Positions 1,789 to 12,392 of a stretch of 14,865 bases of DNA are shown here, in pieces. The translations under genes were made by a program, and so were the position numbers. The first letter of the stretch is position 1. Each line of letters begins with the position of its first letter. The notes under the pieces were generated by a model. It searched no databases and was not told the origin of the DNA. It saw nothing but the letters and a program-made list of their open reading frames with translations. The stretch is from UHGV virus genome UHGV-0294841, one strand, 5' to 3'. The stretch comes from a virus.

Positions 1789-1812
1789 CAGGGGCGCGGT
1801 TCCGCGCCCCTG
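1789..1812 (-). terminator. GC-rich perfect hairpin just downstream of the major capsid gene (attenuator or RNA-stabilising stem-loop)
   Basis: caggggcgcgg-tt-ccgcgcccctg: 11-bp perfect GC-rich stem with a 2-nt loop, between the capsid stop (1818) and the next start (1769). Only a short TT follows on the minus strand, so a partial terminator at most. Confidence 0.45.
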
Positions 1813-1817
1813 AGTGA

Positions 1818-3023
1818 TTACGCCGCTGCAATCTTCAGCAGTTTGATGGCCTGCGAATCGACCAGCATCCCGCCGGTGCGCTTGGTGGTATAAAAACCGA
1901 CAAACGGTTTATTGGTGTACGGGTCACGCAGAATGCGGGTGCCGATACGGTCAACGATGGTGTAACCCCGTTTGAAGTTACCAAATGCAATGGCTTTCGC
2001 ATCAGCGGCGATATCCGGCATCTGTTCGTTTTCAGCGATACCGTAACCCGCCAGAGAGGACGGCTGCCCCAGTTCCAGCCCCGGACGCCACAGATAGTTA
2101 CCCTCGGTGTCTTTCAGCAGACGGATGGCAAACAGGCTGTTGTTGTTCATCATGAACTTCGCGCCAGTGCGGTGTGCCTTACGCAGCGTGTAAATCAGTT
2201 TGATAATGGCGTCTGCGGTCACCGCCGTCGCTTCGCCGGATACAATATGCTGAAGTTTGCCGAACGCCCGGACCTTATCGGTTTCATCAGTGGATTCATA
2301 CGCCAGGAACCCTTTCGGCTTCTTGGTACCATCGCCGGTGGTAAAGGCAATTTCTTCCTGTTCGGCAAATTCGGTTGCCAGCTCGCTGTTGATCCATGCT
2401 TCCACGTTGAAAAAGGCATCATCCAGCATTTTCTGGGTAGCCTGCGGGTTACCGTAGATTTCCCCCATGAAAGGTTCAATCAGTCCCAGTTTTGAGGTGG
2501 CAGTCTGGGAGCGCGCGTCAGTCTCGCCAACCCATCCGGAAGCCGTGCCGCCCAGATTCACCAGTTTTTTGTAGTCGGAACCGCCAACGGTGATCACCGT
2601 GGCTTCCTGGCGCATCACCACTTCATCTTTCAGCAGGGTAAGAATGTTGCGATCCAGTGCTTCCGGCACGGCATAGCCGCCGTCTTCATCGGTGCCCACC
2701 TGTAATGCCTTGCGCTCCAGATCGCGCAGACCATCTTCACGGCCTTTACGCAGGAAGCCCACAAACGCTTCTTTATGCTCGGTGGCCAGTTTATTTTGCG
2801 CACCACCTGCCGGACGTTTCAGCTCAAGAAGCTCTTTTTCAAGATCGCTTTTGAGGTTTTCCAGCTCGCTGAGTTTCCCGTTCAGGGTTTCCACCTGCCC
2901 GGCAAGTTTGCCTTTTTCCTGCTCAATCGCATCCACGCGCTTGTCGTTCTTTGCTTTGAAGTCGTCAAACTTCTGCTGCAGCTCCTGCGCGACCTGTTCG
3001 ACATCTTTAATATCAACCGCCAT
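1818..3023 (-). CDS. Major capsid protein, HK97 family, with N-terminal coiled-coil scaffolding (delta) domain
   Basis: 401 aa. N-terminal ~100 aa is a heptad-rich coiled coil ('KLAGQVETLNGKLSELENLKSDLEKELLELK'), followed by the 'GGYAVPEA' region typical of HK97-fold capsids. Position after the protease fits. Confidence 0.9.
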   Translation of the reverse strand: MAVDIKDVEQVAQELQQKFDDFKAKNDKRVDAIEQEKGKLAGQVETLNGKLSELENLKSDLEKELLELKRPAGGAQNKLATEHKEAFVGFLRKGREDGLRDLERKALQVGTDEDGGYAVPEALDRNILTLLKDEVVMRQEATVITVGGSDYKKLVNLGGTASGWVGETDARSQTATSKLGLIEPFMGEIYGNPQATQKMLDDAFFNVEAWINSELATEFAEQEEIAFTTGDGTKKPKGFLAYESTDETDKVRAFGKLQHIVSGEATAVTADAIIKLIYTLRKAHRTGAKFMMNNNSLFAIRLLKDTEGNYLWRPGLELGQPSSLAGYGIAENEQMPDIAADAKAIAFGNFKRGYTIVDRIGTRILRDPYTNKPFVGFYTTKRTGGMLVDSQAIKLLKIAAA

Positions 3024-3037
3024 CGTATTTCTCCTGA

Positions 3038-3688
3038 TTAGAAGTTCAGATTTTTCAGTGCATTCAGTGCAGAGCCCACATCCTCAGCGTCGCGCAGGGA
3101 CAGTGCGCCATAGCCCCCGGCCATGAATGCTTTGGCCTGGGTACGGGAGAGTCCGACATCACGCAGGACTCTTTCGATTTTTTTCTGTTCGGGGATTTCC
3201 CCGCGGGCCAGTGCGTTCTTGACGTCGCTGATCCGCGCCTCGTCGTTAGACGGGAACGTCACCAGGCTGACTTCCCAGAGGTCGATTTCTTTCAGCAGAA
3301 AGGCTTCTTTGCTCCGGTCGTATTCCCAGTCTTTCAGGACATACCCAATAGAAAGGCCGGTTAACGAACCGGCCTTCATGTGTGCATGTGCGCGTTTTGC
3401 GAGGGGATCATCATCAATAAGCAACCGTCCCCTGACGTAAAGCCCGACATCGTCTTCCTTCATTTCGGTGTAAACACCGATGGGTTCATCCATGCGGTGC
3501 TGCCAGAGCAGCGCAGGTAACGCTTTTCTGTCACTCCACGCCCGCAGGGAAGCAGCAAATGCCCCGGACATCACCACATCATCGTGGCTGTCCTTTACAC
3601 CAAAGACGGAGCCATACCCTTCAAACTCACCGGAGTCACTGACAGATTTCAGACTCAGCGGTACATCAAGACGTTGTTTCGTCTGCAT
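3038..3688 (-). CDS. Prohead maturation protease, HK97 family
   Basis: Motif 'FEGYGSVFGVKDSHDDVVMSGAFAASL' is typical of HK97-type prohead proteases. I prefer the ATG at 3688 (AAGGA SD 8 nt upstream, no overlap with portal) over the track start at 3724, which lacks an SD and overlaps portal by 59 nt. Confidence 0.85.
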   Translation of the reverse strand: MQTKQRLDVPLSLKSVSDSGEFEGYGSVFGVKDSHDDVVMSGAFAASLRAWSDRKALPALLWQHRMDEPIGVYTEMKEDDVGLYVRGRLLIDDDPLAKRAHAHMKAGSLTGLSIGYVLKDWEYDRSKEAFLLKEIDLWEVSLVTFPSNDEARISDVKNALARGEIPEQKKIERVLRDVGLSRTQAKAFMAGGYGALSLRDAEDVGSALNALKNLNF

Positions 3689-4907
3689 TGGCGTTATCCT
3701 TCTGCTTACCGGCTTTACTGCCATCGGAGGGTTTCGTGGTCATGTTCATCGGTGTGAGATAGACATCCCCACCGGGACGCGGATTCATATCTTCCAGGTC
3801 GCGGCAGTCATTGGGAGAGTAAATTCCCCAGTTGATCCCGGTGGCGTAGGCTTCAAAACGGGACTTCATATCCCCGCGCAGTAACGCCCCGGCGTTAAAT
3901 TTGGCGTAATAAACGCCCTGCTTACTTTTTCGTACCAGTCCGGTGTTGATCCGCTGTTCGATGCGGGTCAGATACGGCACCAGTGAATAGTTGATAAATC
4001 CCAGCCCCAGCTCTTCGATATTGTTGAAGGTGGCGCGATCGGTGTTCTGCACCATGTGCAACGGCACCCGGAACAGACGACAGATTTCTTCAAGCTGAAA
4101 CTTGCGGGTTTCCAGGAACTGGCTGTCCTCGGCGTTCAGCGCCATCGACTTCCAGTCCAGCCCCATCTCAAGGATCATCGGGCGGTGAGCATTGCCAAGC
4201 CCGGTGTGACGCTCCTCAAAATCTTTCTTCAGGCGCTCATAAGCCTGATCTGACAGCGTCTGCTCTGTACGCAACACCCCCGACGTCACCGCGCCATTGC
4301 TGAACAGTCTGGCCCCGTGCTCTTCGGTCGCTGCCGCCAGCGATATTGCCTCGCGGGCATAGGCGACGGGATTCAGCCCCACCAGTCCGTCCAGCGTCAG
4401 CGTGCGCACATGCCAGATATCCTCCTGGCTCAGTACATCCGTGGAGCCATCCGGGAATGTGACCTGATAGACCGGCTCCCAGCTACTGTTAAGCTTCGGT
4501 ACCACACAACCGGGATCGACGGGCAGCAGTTCAGCCACTTCGCCAAATGCTTTCACTTTGTAGGCGTAAAAATTTCCCCTCAGACACAGACAGGTGACCA
4601 CCAGCTCCCAGAACTCCTGCGGCGTCATATAGCTATTGGGATGCGTGGAGATCAGTTTATGCAGACGTTCGCCGGTGGCTCTCTGCTTCAGGCTGCCGTT
4701 CAGGTGATACAGATTGCAGGGCAACATCCCGACCGACTCTGCCAGCACTCTGACGCAGGAAAAAACCGCCGTCAGTCGCATGGCTCGCTGACTGCTGATC
4801 TGCTTTCCGGTATAGGTGTCGTAGGACAACCCGATGGCATCCGCCAGCTCTGCTGGCGTGGTCACCGGTGCGTCACTTTTTCGTTGAAATAATCCCGAAA
4901 AGAACAC
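3666..4907 (-). CDS. Portal protein, HK97 family
   Basis: 413 aa, positioned between terminase and protease. Only possible start is GTG at 4905-4907, preceded by GGAGG SD (in-frame stop lies immediately upstream). Confidence 0.85.
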   Translation of the reverse strand: MFFSGLFQRKSDAPVTTPAELADAIGLSYDTYTGKQISSQRAMRLTAVFSCVRVLAESVGMLPCNLYHLNGSLKQRATGERLHKLISTHPNSYMTPQEFWELVVTCLCLRGNFYAYKVKAFGEVAELLPVDPGCVVPKLNSSWEPVYQVTFPDGSTDVLSQEDIWHVRTLTLDGLVGLNPVAYAREAISLAAATEEHGARLFSNGAVTSGVLRTEQTLSDQAYERLKKDFEERHTGLGNAHRPMILEMGLDWKSMALNAEDSQFLETRKFQLEEICRLFRVPLHMVQNTDRATFNNIEELGLGFINYSLVPYLTRIEQRINTGLVRKSKQGVYYAKFNAGALLRGDMKSRFEAYATGINWGIYSPNDCRDLEDMNPRPGGDVYLTPMNMTTKPSDGSKAGKQKDNANADETTS

Positions 4908-5100: not shown

Positions 5101-6834
5101 TTAAAGCGAGCGGATCCCATAGGACTCAATGTGGTCAGACAGCGTGTCTTCTTTCTCGTACAGCATGGCTCTGCCAACCGCCATAATCAGCGCAACTGCA
5201 CCATCGATTTTGTTTTCCGCCTGCTCTTTGACGGGCTTCACCACATCATCGTTACCCGGAATGGTTTTGCCGACCACGTTGCCGATACACCAGGTCATGA
5301 TGGGATTGCCATCATGATGAAAGCGCCCCGATTCAATTGCCGCTTCCAGCTCTTTCATCGGGTCGGACATGTTGGTGTAGTTCTGAATGATAGTGATGGG
5401 GTTCAGGTCTTCATCAGCAAGGTCATGTGAGAGCCCGGTCGCCCCGAAGGGGTCGATGGGTGACTCGCTGACCGGGCTGATTTTGTTCGCCGCTTTGGCC
5501 TCTTCGAGGATGTAGCGATAATCCACCTCCGCACCATCGGTAACGGTCAGAACGCCCATTTCCACCCATTTCTGAAAGCGTTCGGCTGTCCGGCGATCTT
5601 CATTTTTCTCGACGCTGTACACCGTGTCATACGGTACCCAGAAACGCGGGGCTACACTGTAGTAATGCGTTTTACCGTCAATCTCGCGGGTATAAAGTCG
5701 CGCCATGCTGTTCATATCCAGTTTACGCGCCAGGTCAAAGGCCAGAATGCACGGCTGCCCCTCGAACTGCTCAAGGGACAGTGATTTATCCTCGCAGCTC
5801 TGCCAGCTCACCAGGTTGAAATACGCCGAACGCGCCGACACCCAGATATTGAGGTGTTTTGTTTTAAAGACGTTTGCCAGACGGGCGTTATTTTTCGCAC
5901 GCTGCTGCTGACTTAACAAAAATTCGCGATAAACCGACACGCCAATATTTGGATTGGCTTTTTCCAGCACCTGCGGGTCGGTCCAGTCGTCACCTTCATC
6001 AACGGTATAGATGATCCCGAACAGTTCATCGTTAGGCACCGAGCCGTTGAGCATCTCGATGACTTCCCGCCGTTTGTCGTAGCACGGCCCCTCAATGTTG
6101 TACCCGGCGGTAGTGATAGCCCACATCAGTGGCTGACGTCGCGCCCCCATCCCGGTAAGCATCGTGGTGTAAAGCGCATCTGTGGCGTGCTCGTGATATT
6201 CATCCACCACCGCACAGTGGGGTGATGAACCATCACCGGGGTTACCGATCAGCGGTTCAAAACGCGCACCATCCTCCGGACGGTTCATGTTTGAGGCGTT
6301 AACCTCAATCCCGAACGCTTCCGTCAGCATGGGTGTGCGTTTACACATCAGTCTTGCCGGGCGAAAGACTTCCCATGCCTGTTTCTCTGTCGTGGCACCG
6401 GAATACACTTCCGCGCCGAACTCGTTATCACAGGCAAAACAATACAGGGCGACACCGGCAGAGATTGCCGATTTGCCGTTCTTACGGGGGATTTCGGTAT
6501 ACACCTCACGGAAGCGGCGCAGCCGGGAGCCTTTATTGACCCAGCCAAACGCGCAGCAGATCACAAAGAGCTGCCACGGCTCCAGCGTGATGGGCATCCT
6601 CTTAAATGCCCACTCACCCTTGGTGTGCGGCAACAGCTGAATAAATTTGGCGGCCCGTTCAGCCAGGTCCTTGTCGAAGCGGTAACGAAACGACTTACTT
6701 TTTTCCGCCATCAGGTCATCAAGATGGCGCTGGCAGGCCTGAATCACAAACTGGCAGGCCACAATCTTTCCGCGCACGACATCACGGGCATACTGATTGG
6801 CAGCATTTACGTTGGGGTAAGATTTCCGGCTCAT
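5101..6834 (-). CDS. Terminase large subunit
   Basis: 577 aa; Walker-A-like 'EIPRKNGKS' in the N-terminal ATPase region and an acidic C-terminal nuclease region. ATGA overlap with the small subunit. Confidence 0.9.
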
Positions 6835-7325
6835 GATTCGATGATTTTCAGAAACGGGTTAGTGGTTTTCTTCTGCCCCGCCAGGCCAATCAGACGCTGA
6901 CGGCTGCTGGGGTCGAGTCCGAGCATTGCCCCCGTGCTGCTCATCTCGGACTCCTGTTCTTTTTTGGCGGTCAGCTCCGGATTTTTGACCATGCCGCCCA
7001 TTGCACCGGTGATGGTGTTGCCCTGTCTGGCAATATTTTTCACGGCACGTCGCCAGAACTCGTAGGCCACGCACCACCGCTCAAGCACCGCGAGGTCAGT
7101 CACGCACAGCAGGCCCTGACCGCAGAGTTCTTTAGTTGTCAGTTGCCACATGATCGTAGCGAGAGGGAGATCTTCTTCAGCGAACCACTCCGGTGGCTCA
7201 ACACCTTTGATGGGCGTAAAAACAGGTTCATCTTTATTCAGGGCTCGCTTGCCGGGGTTTCCGGCCAGCGCCTTGCGCGCCGTTGGCTTGGGGCGACGCC
7301 CGGAACGCCCCGCCGTTCCAGCCAT
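6831..7325 (-). CDS. Terminase small subunit, P27 family
   Basis: N-terminus '[26 protein letters not shown]' is characteristic of P27-family small terminases. I place the start at ATG 7325 (AGGAG SD 8 nt upstream) rather than the track's GTG at 7334. Confidence 0.8.
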
Positions 7326-7334
7326 ATGCGGCAC

Positions 7335-7450
7335 TCCTGGTTAAATTTCATTTTTCGCGGGTATAAAAAAACGATGGGGCGGGCAGTCCGGAAGACGTCA
7401 GGTCACAGGGATTTGACCCGCCCCTCCCCTCTGGCAATGGGAACTGGTTC
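7335..7450 (-). other. Candidate cos/packaging-recognition region
   Basis: 116-bp non-coding gap between HNH and small terminase. Contains an 8-bp GC inverted repeat, ggggcggg (7376-7383) and cccgcccc (7417-7424), 33 bp apart, plus an A7 tract at 7366-7372. In HK97-like cos phages, cos lies between the HNH gene and terS. Confidence 0.4.
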
Positions 7451-7801
7451 TTACTTCAGCCGTTCACGGGCCGTCTTCGCCTTATGACACGGCCAGCACA
7501 GACTCTGCAGGTTACTGTCGGCATCGGTGCCGCCATGCGCTTTGGGAATGATGTGGTCAACGGTTTTCGCCTCGCGCACCACACCGGCACGCAGACACAA
7601 CTGACACAGGCCTTTGTCACGCTTCAGGACACGCGCGCGGATACTGTCCCACTTCGAACCGTAGCCGCGCTGATGACGGGATTGTCCAGGTTTGTATTGC
7701 TTCCAGCCTTCGCTTTTGTGGCTTTCGCAGTAGCCTGAAGGGTCCGTGGTTGTAGAGCGGCAGCCGCGAACACGGCAGGCTTTTGGGGTTCGTGGGGGCA
7801 T
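7451..7801 (-). CDS. HNH homing-type endonuclease, packaging-associated
   Basis: 116 aa with paired Cys ('CRVRGC...C'), a 'DHIIPKAHGG' catalytic His and 'N...CWPCH' zinc motif. Sits immediately upstream of terminase. GGAG SD present. Confidence 0.9.
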   Translation of the reverse strand: MPPRTPKACRVRGCRSTTTDPSGYCESHKSEGWKQYKPGQSRHQRGYGSKWDSIRARVLKRDKGLCQLCLRAGVVREAKTVDHIIPKAHGGTDADSNLQSLCWPCHKAKTARERLK

Positions 7802-7941: not shown

Positions 7942-8022
7942 ATTTCCCGTTTGATTTAATGGACACTATAGAGGGACAGAATGCCTTCCTCACTCGAATC
8001 ACATCAATTAAGGAGGTTCAAC

Positions 8023-8145
8023 ATGTTTCATTCCCCAAGTCATCAGGCTGTAATTATGGCAGCATCAGTTTGTGCCACAGACCTTTTCCGCTTCACTTTG
8101 AGCCTGATTCATTTCTACCTGACCGGCTCGCCTCTATCTTTTTAA
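8023..8145 (+). CDS. Possible small hydrophobic peptide (40 aa) with near-consensus RBS
   Basis: AGGAGG at 8011-8016, 6-nt spacer, ATG at 8023. Encodes 'MFHSPSHQAVIMAASVCATDLFRFTLSLIHFYLTGSPLSF'. No family recognised; the call rests on the RBS alone. Confidence 0.3.
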   Translation: MFHSPSHQAVIMAASVCATDLFRFTLSLIHFYLTGSPLSF

Positions 8146-8325
8146 TCCCCGCTTTATCCAAATTGCATTGCCAGAATGCCGACAACAGACTGACATTCAA
8201 ATCCTGACTACCTCCAATAGTCTGATCGTACACCTATATAGTTTTAATTTTCATCAATCCATTTAACTATCGTTTAATTGTTGTCACATAGGATTCTGCC
8301 GTTTTTAACAATGCAGGATAATAAG

Positions 8326-8619
8326 ATGAAAAAAATGTTGTTTTCTGCCGCTCTGGCTATGCTTATTACAGGATGTGCTCAACAGACGTTTACTGTTGGA
8401 AACAAACCGACAGCAGTAACACCAAAGGAAACCATCACCCATCATTTCTTCGTTTCGGGAATTGGACAGGAGAAAACTGTTGATGCAGCCAAAATTTGTG
8501 GCGGCGCAGAAAATGTTGTTAAAACAGAAACCCAGCAAACATTCGTAAATGGATTGCTCGGTTTTATTACTTTAGGCATTTATACTCCGCTGGAAGCGCG
8601 GGTGTATTGCTCACAATAA
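8326..8619 (+). CDS. bor: Bor outer-membrane lipoprotein (lambda Bor-like, serum-resistance moron)
   Basis: 'MKKMLFSAALAMLITGCAQQTFTV...EARVYCSQ' matches my recollection of lambda Bor closely, including the ITGC lipobox. I take the start as ATG 8326 (AGGA 8 nt upstream), not the track's TTG at 8278. Opposite strand to the late operon, AT-rich. Confidence 0.9.
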   Translation: MKKMLFSAALAMLITGCAQQTFTVGNKPTAVTPKETITHHFFVSGIGQEKTVDAAKICGGAENVVKTETQQTFVNGLLGFITLGIYTPLEARVYCSQ

Positions 8620-10088: not shown

Positions 10089-10233
10089 AAGTTGTGTGGC
10101 GAAGTAACCACTCTTAACATGATACATCACTTTTTGCGGACCGTGCTAATGAAATATGTTCGTTAATTTAGTATGTTAAGGACTATCTAAATTGCCTTCA
10201 AAAAGTACAAAAAAATACAAAAAAGGGTTTCTT

Positions 10234-11331
10234 ATGAATGAGCAAACGATCAACCTTTTAAGAGATATCACCGAACGTGTTGGATGGAAGCTCACAAAAA
10301 AAATTGTGGGGGAACCACTTGGTGTCACATCAGTTGGCCTTGACCCATTTATCGCGAGGCTCCAAGCAACAGAAGATGTAGATCAGGAAGCTGTAAGTAC
10401 TCATATAGGTGAAGTATGGCAAAATTTACTATTGAGTGGGACCCGTTTAGTTAAGCTGTATAAGTTAGAACCGGAAGAAGTGCAAACTCTACGGGAGAAT
10501 ATAAATGCCCTAGAAAGAGACGAATCCGTTTTTTGCGAAAGCTATCCATATCCTTTGCCTAAAGATGTGTTGCTTGCAGCTGATACAGATCTTCATTTTT
10601 TAGAAACTACATTTTCTGTCGTAAACAAAGTTTCTTTAGAAACAACGATTCTTACGTCGAAAGCATACTACACAGAAACTATTGAACTCGACGCGACCCA
10701 TTTAAGCGATGCTGGGCTAGCTCTTCGCTCCAATGGTGGTGAAATCAAATGTAAAACACGTGAAGTTACACAGTGCTTTAATACAATAATGATTCTACCC
10801 GAGTTGCATTTACTTGCGCTCACTGTTGATTTATCTGTGATGCCTCGTTCAGAGTCGGAACGACAGCAATTTTTGCTTGATCAGTTTATTAGAACTACTA
10901 CTGGTTTGACTTTACCTGCGCCCATTGACCTCTTTGGATTAGTACAAGAAATGTACGAGCAAACAGATGGTAGAATCTCGCAGATGTCATTTCTTACATC
11001 AGATGGAAACACCAGCTCATTAAAACTCCGTCCGGGTGAAAGCTGCTTGCGCTCAGACAGCTACCATCATGGGGGCGAAGAGGCAAGTCCCATACTAACG
11101 AAATACAAACTCGGTAAAATTTGGGATCTGACTGATTCAGCTTCTCAAGTTTTCCCTGTAGAATTAATACTGCCAGGTAAACGGGCTATGATTGATAAAC
11201 CGAACAGTCACCTTTATGATGCAATCATAGATCGTTGCTCCTCAATTGAGCATATTTTGTTTGTAATCAACAAGATGTTAGAGTCACTATCAAGCATACA
11301 GAGAAAGCGAGCCACTGACGAGGCTGCATAA
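10234..11331 (+). CDS. Hypothetical protein A (365 aa), first gene of an AT-rich three-gene insert; no recognised domain
   Basis: 1.1-kb ORF in ~40% GC DNA (flanking phage genes roughly 50% or higher by my hand count), where chance ORFs are short. ATG 10234 preceded by AAAAGGG; the track's earlier start at 10192 is a TTG. 10-bp gap to gene B. Confidence 0.75.
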   Translation: MNEQTINLLRDITERVGWKLTKKIVGEPLGVTSVGLDPFIARLQATEDVDQEAVSTHIGEVWQNLLLSGTRLVKLYKLEPEEVQTLRENINALERDESVFCESYPYPLPKDVLLAADTDLHFLETTFSVVNKVSLETTILTSKAYYTETIELDATHLSDAGLALRSNGGEIKCKTREVTQCFNTIMILPELHLLALTVDLSVMPRSESERQQFLLDQFIRTTTGLTLPAPIDLFGLVQEMYEQTDGRISQMSFLTSDGNTSSLKLRPGESCLRSDSYHHGGEEASPILTKYKLGKIWDLTDSASQVFPVELILPGKRAMIDKPNSHLYDAIIDRCSSIEHILFVINKMLESLSSIQRKRATDEAA

Positions 11332-11341
11332 AGAGTTGATT

Positions 11342-11764
11342 ATGTTAACTAAACACGACATATACTCGAAAATCAACCACGACCTACATGGGCCGGTTGG
11401 AGATTTATGTCGTGTTGTGGTTGATTTTTTAACCAGCAAAGAAGCTAAGTCACTGAAACACATAACATATGTAAGTTTGGTTAATGGTACTAAGCTTGAT
11501 GTGCAAAATAACGATGCCAAAGTTTTACTGATCAAAGTAACTGACTATCTTTCGAGCAACAGAATGCACTTGCTAGATATGCATTTCCAGTATATCGAGT
11601 CTGACGATAGTGATCCTATTCCCGTCGATGATGATGACGTGTCTCATGCGCTTCATACAGGTAAGTTTTATCATCCTTACAGTGGTCAATTAGTCGATAA
11701 TTATAATCATTATTTGTTCCCATACTTCACTCCTACTGAGGCTTTGGAGGAATTACATGAGTGA
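11342..11764 (+). CDS. Hypothetical protein B (140 aa), acidic
   Basis: ATG 11342 with AAGAG SD. Stop overlaps gene C start by 8 bp (ATGAGTGA). Acidic tract 'ESDDSDPIPVDDDDV'. No family recognised. Confidence 0.7.
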   Translation: MLTKHDIYSKINHDLHGPVGDLCRVVVDFLTSKEAKSLKHITYVSLVNGTKLDVQNNDAKVLLIKVTDYLSSNRMHLLDMHFQYIESDDSDPIPVDDDDVSHALHTGKFYHPYSGQLVDNYNHYLFPYFTPTEALEELHE

Positions 11765-12392
11765 ATGTAATTTCAACCTTGCCCAATTAGACACCTTAAG
11801 TCAATTTGACCCTGAATTGTCTGGTTTTCTTAAGCGAAAATTTGCAGCAAGTCACGACGATTTCGTGAAGCAACTTTACGTTGACCTTGATGACGCGATG
11901 TATGTTTTGGAAACCCAAAAACATATGTATCAAACACAGCAGTGGGGTGAAGATGAGCTCACATCAGTTATTATTGCTTTTTTGAAAGGCCGTAATTATG
12001 ACGCTGAACATGACACTCAGCATGGAGGGCATATAGATATATTAGTTAAACATCAGCTCGGCCGATTTGCATGGATTGGCGAAGCTAAATTATGGAAAGG
12101 TCCTGCGTACATCTTAGGTGGATGGAACCAGCTCAACGAGCGATATGGCACTGGCACTGCGCGTGACAACCATGGTGGCATTATCATTTACTGTAAAATT
12201 AAGAAATCTGGCGAGAGACTTGATGACTGGCGAAAGCATCTTCAGCAGGAAGTAGCTGATGCAAAAATTACAACCGACGAGGATAATCCCTTGCGATTCA
12301 TGAGTACAACATTGCATCCAGCTACAAATCAACCATATTATGTAAGACATATGGTCGTTTCATTATTTCATGCTACAGGAGACTCAGAGTAG
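11757..12392 (+). CDS. Hypothetical protein C (211 aa) with PD-(D/E)xK nuclease-like motif
   Basis: 'GEDELTSVIIAFL...GGHIDILVKHQLGRFAWIGEAKLW' places an Asp at the end of a hydrophobic strand 15 residues before an E-A-K triplet, the classic PD-(D/E)xK arrangement, with an upstream Glu-containing helix. ATG start coupled to gene B. The 3' end overlaps the Q gene 3' end by 25 bp, convergently. Confidence 0.75.
   Translation: MSECNFNLAQLDTLSQFDPELSGFLKRKFAASHDDFVKQLYVDLDDAMYVLETQKHMYQTQQWGEDELTSVIIAFLKGRNYDAEHDTQHGGHIDILVKHQLGRFAWIGEAKLWKGPAYILGGWNQLNERYGTGTARDNHGGIIIYCKIKKSGERLDDWRKHLQQEVADAKITTDEDNPLRFMSTTLHPATNQPYYVRHMVVSLFHATGDSE

What the first reader, a model, noticed from the sequence alone, without database searches (positions are those of the whole stretch)
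7335..7450. Candidate cos site with GC inverted repeat between HNH endonuclease and small terminase
HNH endonucleases adjacent to terminase genes are a known accessory of cos-type packaging in HK97-like phages, with cos lying between the HNH gene and terS. This 116-bp gap carries an 8-bp GC inverted repeat spaced 33 bp apart and an A-tract, plausible terminase/HNH recognition and bending elements.
Basis: partly seen in the sequence, partly recalled or inferred. Interest (0 to 1): 0.45.

Follow-up and report, generated by a model that had tools for sequence, protein, structure and literature searches.

The report
Known cos packaging site of SfV-like prophage
The gap between the HNH and small-terminase genes is the cohesive-end (cos) site where this common E. 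coli prophage cuts its DNA for packaging; the site was already mapped experimentally in near-identical Shigella phages, so the finding is correct but ordinary.

Summary
All the genes involved lie on the minus strand. The window is an SfV/SfI/phiP27-like E. coli prophage. An 83-bp block (7346-7428) is 82/83 identical to phage SfV and 81/83 to SfI. In SfI, run-off sequencing of virion DNA defined a 10-nt cohesive end, 5'-TGCCCGCCCC-3'. In the window this is minus strand 7385..7376. PhiP27 has a 'cos-site' annotated at the aligned 10-mer. The PhageTerm-corrected Edwardsiella phage EPP-1 record ends and begins exactly at the 7376|7375 boundary.

The 8-bp inverted repeat is real (7376-7383 / 7417-7424), but one arm is simply the cohesive end. 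Repeats this long appear in 9% of shuffles of the gap. The two arms do not covary across 46 divergent relatives.

The parts that are conserved:
- an upstream G-rich box plus TCAAATC, at -41 from the cut;
- GAC at -13;
- the C-rich 10-mer;
- a downstream T-run plus ACCCGCGAAAAATGAAA.

The upstream half is shared with HK97 in the same register and travels with the HNH gene. The downstream half changes with the small-terminase type, so it is probably the TerS binding site. Novelty: already known. Interest: low.

The parts
7451..7801 (-). HNH endonuclease gene, the terminase accessory nuclease homologous to HK97 gp74. Stop codon TAA at 7453-7451.
   Evidence: Pfam PF01844 E 2.3e-16. BLASTP to HK97 gp74 E 7e-11. 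Best solved relative is 5h0m, deposited as 'HNH endonuclease', E 2e-12. Annotated as HNH in the 98.8% identical E. coli genome.
7346..7428 (-). Whole conserved cos block, -53 to +30 relative to the sense-strand cut. This is the unit that also occurs on satellite-like contigs lacking a flanking HNH or terS.
   Evidence: 82/83 identical to SfV, 81/83 to SfI, 63/83 to phiP27, 59/83 to EPP-1. PhiP27 matches the window at the DNA level only across this block. Same block in L097, L079 and L117 with unrelated flanks. Present in 1162 of 5426 complete E. coli genomes and unannotated there.
7417..7431 (-). G-rich box GAGGGGAGGGGCGGG.
   Evidence: The G-run is the best-conserved upstream feature in 41 divergent representatives, up to 100% at -47/-46. 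Also present in HK97 as G9.
7406..7416 (-). TCAAATCCCTG box. The T lies at -41 from the cut, the same distance as in HK97.
   Evidence: Alignments. The AAA is 90-93% conserved. HK97 has ATCAAATC with T at -41.
7386..7391 (-). CCGGAC, with GAC at -13..-11 directly in front of the cohesive end.
   Evidence: The AC is 93% conserved. HK97 has GAC at the same -13 position.
7376..7385 (-). Cohesive-end 10-mer 5'-TGCCCGCCCC-3' on the sense strand (GGGGCGGGCA on +). Inferred nicks lie between 7376|7375 on the minus strand and 7385|7386 on the plus strand, giving 10-nt 3' overhangs. Bases 7376-7383 are the proximal arm of the inverted repeat.
   Evidence: SfI virion end sequencing (PMC3636060). PhiP27 'cos-site' feature. 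EPP-1 record ends. The 3' polarity is inferred from the reported 'gap' and from HK97's 10-nt 3' overhang (PMC9410871 and PMC11331095).
7365..7371 (-).
   Evidence: The run is at least T5 in all relatives collected. TC at +2/+3 is 95% conserved.
7344..7364 (-). ATACCCGCGAAAAATGAAATT, at +12..+32. Putative small-terminase (TerS) binding site, functionally cosB-like.
   Evidence: Invariant in E. coli, Salmonella and Klebsiella relatives and nearly so in phiP27. Positions +28..+32, which lay outside the search pattern, are 90-100% conserved. With the upstream half held fixed, this half switches type together with the TerS type. The HK97 TerS site is +15..+29, with a C:G pair and an adjacent A-tract (PMC11331095). 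The assignment is an inference.
6831..7325 (-). Small terminase gene (P27 family). ATG at 7325, AGGAG ribosome-binding site at 7334-7338.
   Evidence: Pfam PF05119 E 2.3e-21. Start agrees with SfV orf1 and with PGAP.
5101..6834 (-). Large terminase gene (ATPase plus nuclease domains).
   Evidence: Pfam PF03354 and PF20441.

Best explanation
Window 7346-7428 (minus strand) is the cos site of an SfV/SfI/phiP27-type temperate phage integrated in E. coli.

Proposed mechanism (each step marked as shown or inferred):
1. Terminase, together with the HNH nuclease, nicks the concatemeric DNA on both strands 10 nt apart. The nicks flank 5'-TGCCCGCCCC-3' (7385..7376). The position is shown in relatives.
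2. This gives 10-nt 3' cohesive ends. The left genome end starts at 7375 and runs into terS. The 3' polarity is inferred.
3. TerS probably binds downstream of the cut, at the T-run plus ACCCGCGAAAAATGAAA (about +5..+30). This is inferred from HK97 and from the co-variation of that half with TerS type.
4. There TerS would mark the DNA for initiation and stall the incoming motor at termination. This is inferred from the HK97 model.
5. The upstream G-box/TCAAATC (-53..-35) and GAC (-13) travel with the HNH gene and are shared with HK97. They are the likely reading frame for the HNH/TerL nuclease step, in a cosQ/cosN-like position. This is inferred.
6. The 8-bp inverted repeat is a by-product of a G-rich upstream box facing a C-rich cohesive end. 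It is not a selected palindrome.
For: - Identity to mapped sites: 81/83 to SfI and 82/83 to SfV, with the 10-mer unchanged.
- SfI termini were sequenced from virions (PMC3636060).
- PhiP27 has a cos-site feature on the aligned 10-mer, and that block is the only DNA-level match between phiP27 and the window.
- The PhageTerm-corrected EPP-1 record ends and starts at the same boundary.
- The gene context is HNH-cos-terS-terL-portal-protease-capsid.
- Conservation profile over 41 divergent representatives.
- The HK97 right end aligns ungapped to -50..-1 at 25/50 identity. Only 3 of about 29,600 positions in the window reach that. T of TCAAATC is at -41 and GAC at -13 in both.
- HK97 has a 10-nt 3' overhang, a TerS site at +15..+29, and gp74-stimulated cleavage (PMC11331095 and PMC9410871).
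- With the left half fixed, the right halves fall into at least four types that track the TerS type. HNH stays 58-71% identical while TerS falls to 25-30% or becomes undetectable.
- The same block occurs on satellite-like contigs without a flanking HNH or terS.
Against: - No virion DNA from this particular prophage was examined. It could be defective, although every late gene in the window is intact.
- The 3' polarity of the overhang is inferred, not stated in the SfI paper.
- The TerS-site assignment rests on analogy. This TerS shows no sequence similarity to HK97 gp1 (BLASTP E 7; hhalign probability 0.1%; no PDB relative).
- The ACCCG motif sits 4 nt nearer the cut than in HK97.
- The left half is physically next to the HNH gene and the right half next to terS. 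Their co-inheritance could therefore reflect linkage across a mosaic junction at cos rather than co-adaptation.
Confidence: 0.93

Rival explanations
1. The GC inverted repeat followed by a T-run on the sense strand is an intrinsic transcription terminator or attenuator, or another RNA hairpin, between the HNH gene and terS.
For: On the sense strand GGGGCGGG-N33-CCCGCCCC is followed 4 nt later by T7. The minimum-free-energy fold pairs the two arms.
Against: - The terminator scan finds nothing here.
- The loop is 33 nt and the T-run is not adjacent to the stem.
- Fold energy is -29.5 kcal/mol against -27.0 +/- 3.5 for shuffles, z = -0.69.
- The arms do not covary in 46 relatives.
- There is no Rfam match.
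- terS-terL must be co-transcribed with the late operon.
Confidence: 0.04
2. The inverted repeat itself is the functional element: a two-fold symmetric site bound by a dimeric protein (HNH or terminase) that positions the cuts.
For: The repeat is perfect and G+C-rich. It is kept in the SfV/SfI/phiP27 subgroup. Every family member has a G-run facing a C-rich 10-mer.
Against: - The symmetry centre (about 7400) lies 20 nt from the centre of the overhang (7380.5).
- 9% of shuffles give an equal repeat.
- Sites with the same right arm, CCCGCCCC, carry different left arms such as GGGGGAGG.
- Within-site complementarity equals between-site complementarity, p = 0.21.
- HK97 lacks the repeat.
Confidence: 0.08
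3. The gap is an ordinary intergenic spacer holding only the terS ribosome-binding site, and the phage packages by a headful (pac) mechanism or from a cos located elsewhere.
For: None beyond the weak statistics of the repeat.
Against: - Non-coding conservation exceeds that of the flanking genes. PhiP27 matches only here.
- Termini were mapped in SfI and EPP-1.
- PhiP27 carries a cos annotation on the aligned 10-mer.
- The block is portable and occurs on satellite-like elements.
Confidence: 0.02

Closest known systems
cos sites of Shigella/E. coli phages SfI, SfV, SfII, SfIV and Stx2e phage phiP27
   Same: Same position between the HNH gene and the P27-family terS. 81-82/83 identity to SfI and SfV, and 63/83 to phiP27. 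Same 10-nt cohesive end (TGCCCGCCCC; CGCCCGCCCC in phiP27). Same G-box, TCAAATC and ACCCGCGAAA blocks.
   Different: One or two base changes: C rather than T at 7409, and A rather than G at 7375 relative to SfI. The spacer just after the HNH stop is a different allele from SfV. An iss/bor gene is inserted upstream between Rz and HNH.
HK97 cos (10-nt 3' overhang; gp1 TerS, gp2 TerL, gp74 HNH)
   Same: HNH-cos-terS-terL order. The HNH is homologous (E 7e-11). The upstream half aligns in the same register: G-run, TCAAATC at -41, GAC at -13, and a C-rich 10-mer. Downstream there is a C:G-rich motif (ACCCG) next to an A/T tract (PMC11331095, PMC9410871).
   Different: The downstream half is at chance identity (15/50). 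TerS is unrelated in sequence. TerL is only 22-26% identical. The overhang sequence differs (CGCCGCCAAA). ACCCG is at +14 rather than +18. In HK97 the HNH gene ends about 320 bp from cos, against 75 bp here.
Phage lambda cos (cosQ-cosN-cosB)
   Same: Functional layout inferred to be alike: an upstream element met first by the arriving motor, then the nick site, then a downstream small-terminase binding region next to the small-terminase gene. This rests on established knowledge of lambda and was not tested here.
   Different: Lambda has 12-nt 5' overhangs, uses no HNH protein, and has Nu1 R-sites and an IHF site. Sequence similarity to lambda cos was not tested here.

Membership tests
SfV/SfI/phiP27-type cos site (HK97-like 3'-cos with HNH accessory) | Lies between an HNH endonuclease gene and the small/large terminase genes at the head of the structural operon. 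| tested here: met
   Pfam of the flanking ORFs. PGAP annotation of a 98.8% identical genome.
SfV/SfI/phiP27-type cos site (HK97-like 3'-cos with HNH accessory) | Contains the experimentally defined 10-nt cohesive-end sequence in a homologous context. | tested here: met
   TGCCCGCCCC at 7385..7376 on the minus strand. 81/83 identity to SfI over the block. Aligned with the phiP27 cos-site feature and with the EPP-1 record ends.
SfV/SfI/phiP27-type cos site (HK97-like 3'-cos with HNH accessory) | Virion DNA of this very element has fixed ends at this site. | not testable with these tools
   Needs particle DNA or sequencing reads. Only relatives have been mapped.
SfV/SfI/phiP27-type cos site (HK97-like 3'-cos with HNH accessory) | The overhang is 3'-protruding and 10 nt long. 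| not testable with these tools
   Inferred from the 10-nt 'gap' in SfI run-off reads and from HK97's 10-nt 3' overhang.
HK97 cos in the strict sense | A small terminase homologous to HK97 gp1 recognising the +15..+29 site. | tested here: not met
   BLASTP E 7. HK97 gp1 has no Pfam family, whereas the window TerS is PF05119. hhalign probability 0.1%. Downstream half 15/50 identical.
HK97 cos in the strict sense | Upstream half of cos and the HNH partner are homologous to those of HK97. | tested here: met
   25/50 ungapped identity in register, reached by only 3 of about 29,600 window positions. HNH against gp74 E 7e-11.
Intrinsic (rho-independent) terminator | G+C-rich stem with a short loop, followed directly by a U-run, and more stable than composition predicts. 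| tested here: not met
   No call by the scan. 33-nt loop, 4-nt gap before T7, z = -0.69.
Structured palindromic protein-binding site | Complementarity of the two arms is maintained across homologues. | tested here: not met
   Within-site 4.85 nt against between-site 4.75 nt, p = 0.21. 8-bp repeat in 4 of 46 representatives.

The most novel reading that the evidence does not exclude
HK97-like cos sites are two-module elements joined at the cut. An upstream module (G-run plus TCAAATC at -41, GAC at -13, and the C-rich overhang) is shared by phages with unrelated small terminases, HK97 included. It is read by the HNH/TerL nuclease pair, in a cosQ/cosN-like role. The downstream module is exchanged together with terS. 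If so, the G-box/TCAAATC element would be the still-undefined specificity determinant for HNH-assisted cos cleavage. The portable 83-bp block would be what satellites copy to hijack these phages.
Probability: 0.4. Interest if true: 0.35.

Novelty: already known. Interest (0 to 1): 0.15.

Why it matters
The result gives an exact coordinate for the genome ends of a prophage type present in about a fifth of complete E. coli genomes, where the site is not annotated. That helps with prophage boundary and termini annotation, cos-plasmid or phagemid design, and recognising satellites that carry the same site. It does not change current understanding, because the site and its mechanism class were already described for SfI, SfV, phiP27 and HK97. 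The modular left/right pattern is a modest lead for work on the role of the HNH protein in cos recognition.

Tried and rejected
- Terminator/RNA reading: rejected. The scan found none, the fold z-score is -0.69, and there is no Rfam or tRNA hit.
- Inverted repeat as a selected palindrome: rejected by the shuffle test and the arm-covariation test.
- Transferring the HK97 TerS:DNA mechanism by homology: BLASTP, Pfam, a PDB sequence search and a profile-profile comparison all found no relationship between this TerS and HK97 gp1. The TerS-site assignment therefore rests on position and co-variation only.
- Papers that could not be read: the original SfV paper (Allison 2002), the phiP27 paper and Kala 2014 are not held.
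- Literature search for the 10-mers: returned only unrelated primer sequences.
- Not attempted: structure prediction of TerS, because it would not change the verdict.

Full report
**What is in the sequence.**
All genes around the finding are on the minus strand. In order they are:
- an HNH endonuclease (7451-7801);
- the gap;
- a P27-family small terminase (6831-7325);
- the large terminase (5101-6834);
- the portal (3666-4907).

These assignments come from Pfam. The rest of an HK97-type head module and a lambda-type lysis cassette lie on either side. The terS start is the ATG at 7325, behind an AGGAG at 7334-7338. This matches SfV orf1 and the PGAP annotation of a 98.8% identical genome. The gap is therefore 7326-7450. 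There is also an A7 run at 7365-7371.

**Is the repeat more than chance?**
No.
- A perfect repeat of at least 8 bp turns up in 9.35% of dinucleotide-preserving shuffles of the gap.
- The window contains 22 such repeats.
- The sense-strand RNA folds no better than shuffles (z = -0.69).
- No terminator is called.
- There is no Rfam or tRNA hit.

**What the region is.**
The window is a prophage of the SfV/SfI/SfII/SfIV/phiP27/ST64B group. It is 98.8% identical to prophages in pig and cattle E. coli.
- The SfI paper reports run-off sequencing of virion DNA ends. These lacked 10 nt, 5'-TGCCCGCCCC-3', relative to the prophage, and the authors concluded cos packaging as in SfV (PMC3636060). The SfIV paper says SfI, SfII, SfIV and SfV share the same cos (PMC3851460).
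- That 10-mer is present unchanged at 7385..7376 on the minus strand. It is the terS-proximal arm of the repeat plus two bases.
- Over an 83-bp core (7346-7428) the window is 82/83 identical to SfV and 81/83 to SfI.
- PhiP27 carries a GenBank misc_feature 'cos-site' on the aligned 10-mer CGCCCGCCCC. At the DNA level phiP27 matches the window only in this block, not in the flanking genes.
- The record of Edwardsiella phage EPP-1 was corrected with PhageTerm (PMC11043334). It ends ...GTACTGCCCGCCTC and begins at the base aligned with 7375.

**Anatomy and conservation.**
I collected sites from viral contigs using only the downstream motif TTTTTAYACCCGCGAAA. This gave 113 sites and 46 divergent representatives. 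All share a fixed layout on the sense strand:
- a G-rich box;
- (A/G)TCAAA, with the T at -41;
- a variable spacer of about 20 nt;
- GAC at -13;
- a C-rich 10-mer, then the cut;
- TC at +2/+3, then a T-run;
- A(T/C)ACCCGCGAAA.

Conservation outside the search pattern reaches 90-100% at the G-run, AAA, AC, GCC and +28..+32. The arms of the repeat do not covary. Within-site complementarity is 4.85 nt against 4.75 nt between sites (p = 0.21). The same CCCGCCCC arm is found with GGGGGAGG-type left boxes. The repeat is therefore a side effect of a G-rich box facing a C-rich cohesive end.

**Relation to HK97.**
Joining the ends of the HK97 record gives ...GGGGGGGGGATCAAATC-N21-GACCGCCGCCAAA | GTTTGAATTTAACGCTAACCCGATTTTTTT.
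- Registered on the cut, the HK97 left side is 25/50 identical to the window. Only 3 of about 29,600 window positions reach that score. TCAAATC is at -41 and GAC at -13 in both.
- The right side is at chance identity, 15/50.
- The proteins show the same split. The HNH matches gp74 (E 7e-11). TerS shows no similarity to gp1 by BLASTP, Pfam or hhalign. TerL is 22-26% identical.

A second scan fixed only the left half, GGATCAAATC-N21-GACCGCC. It returned at least four kinds of right half, and each went with a different TerS:
- window-type TerS, 75-90% identical;
- HK97 gp1;
- two further Terminase_4 lineages, 25-30% identical.

Meanwhile HNH stayed 58-71% identical in the non-HK97 types.

In HK97 the minimal TerS site is +15..+29 (CTAACCCGATTTTTT). 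It has an essential C:G pair at position 21 and an A-tract. TerS bound there stalls the motor, and gp74 stimulates cleavage to give 10-nt 3' overhangs (PMC11331095, PMC9410871).

**Mechanism proposed.**
- Shown in relatives: the cut positions flanking TGCCCGCCCC, and cos-type packaging.
- Inferred: the overhang is 3'. Run-off reads miss the 10 nt only if the template 5' ends are recessed, and HK97 has a 3' overhang.
- Inferred: TerS binds the T-run plus ATACCCGCGAAAAATGAAA region (7344-7371).
- Inferred: the G-box/TCAAATC/GAC upstream module serves the HNH/TerL nicking step, in a cosQ/cosN-like position.
- Caveat: each half is physically linked to its gene. The co-variation could therefore reflect a mosaic junction at cos rather than co-adaptation.

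**Verdict.**
The block occurs in 1162 of 5426 complete E. coli genomes and is unannotated there. The specific role given to the inverted repeat is not supported. Interest is low. The modular left/right pattern, and the same 83-bp block on satellite-like contigs, are minor leads.

Noticed in passing
window 10192-12392 (+): Three co-oriented ORFs (379, 142 and 211 aa) run against the late operon, between the Q antiterminator gene and the holin gene. None has a Pfam family. The third has a weak match to PADLOC candidate system PDC-S54 (E 6.9e-6). Two interleaved 11-12 bp inverted repeats lie at 11352-11362/11406-11416 and 11369-11380/11417-11428. This may be a moron or defence cassette.
   Followed up: partly
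window 8278-8619 (+): An iss/bor-family lipoprotein gene (Pfam Lambda_Bor, E 1e-30; annotated as iss in the matching E. coli genome) is inserted on the opposite strand between Rz and the HNH gene. SfV has no such insert there.
   Followed up: partly
L097 about 1990-2080 (-); also L079, L117, L044: Viral contigs carry the same 83-bp cos block with no HNH gene upstream and no terS downstream. L097 encodes a D5-like primase, a ClpP-capsid fusion protein, a DUF1441 protein and a DNA methylase. These look like phage satellites that copy the helper phage's cos.
   Followed up: partly
L046 3115-4076 and 5918-6947: Two copies of HNH-cos-terS lie 2.9 kb apart, flanking an IS3-type transposase pair (rve plus HTH_Tnp_1). 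This is a duplication, a junction of two prophages, or an assembly artefact.
   Followed up: partly
loci (e.g. L157, L163, L172, L187): Phages share the upstream cos half and an HNH 58-68% identical to the window's, but have different downstream halves (CCTTTTTTCACATCGCCGCAGGTTAGAAAAC..., GTCAAATTTTTACGCACTCGAAAT...). Their TerS is only 25-30% identical. The mosaic junction falls at about the cut site.
   Followed up: yes
window 1789-1812: A 10-bp perfect hairpin with a 4-nt loop lies just downstream (minus strand) of the major capsid gene stop at 1818. It is probably a terminator or attenuator after the capsid gene.
   Followed up: no
window 7959-8207 (+): An 82-aa ORF with no Pfam match, not annotated in the matching RefSeq genome, sits in the AT-richer stretch between the HNH gene and iss.
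   Followed up: no
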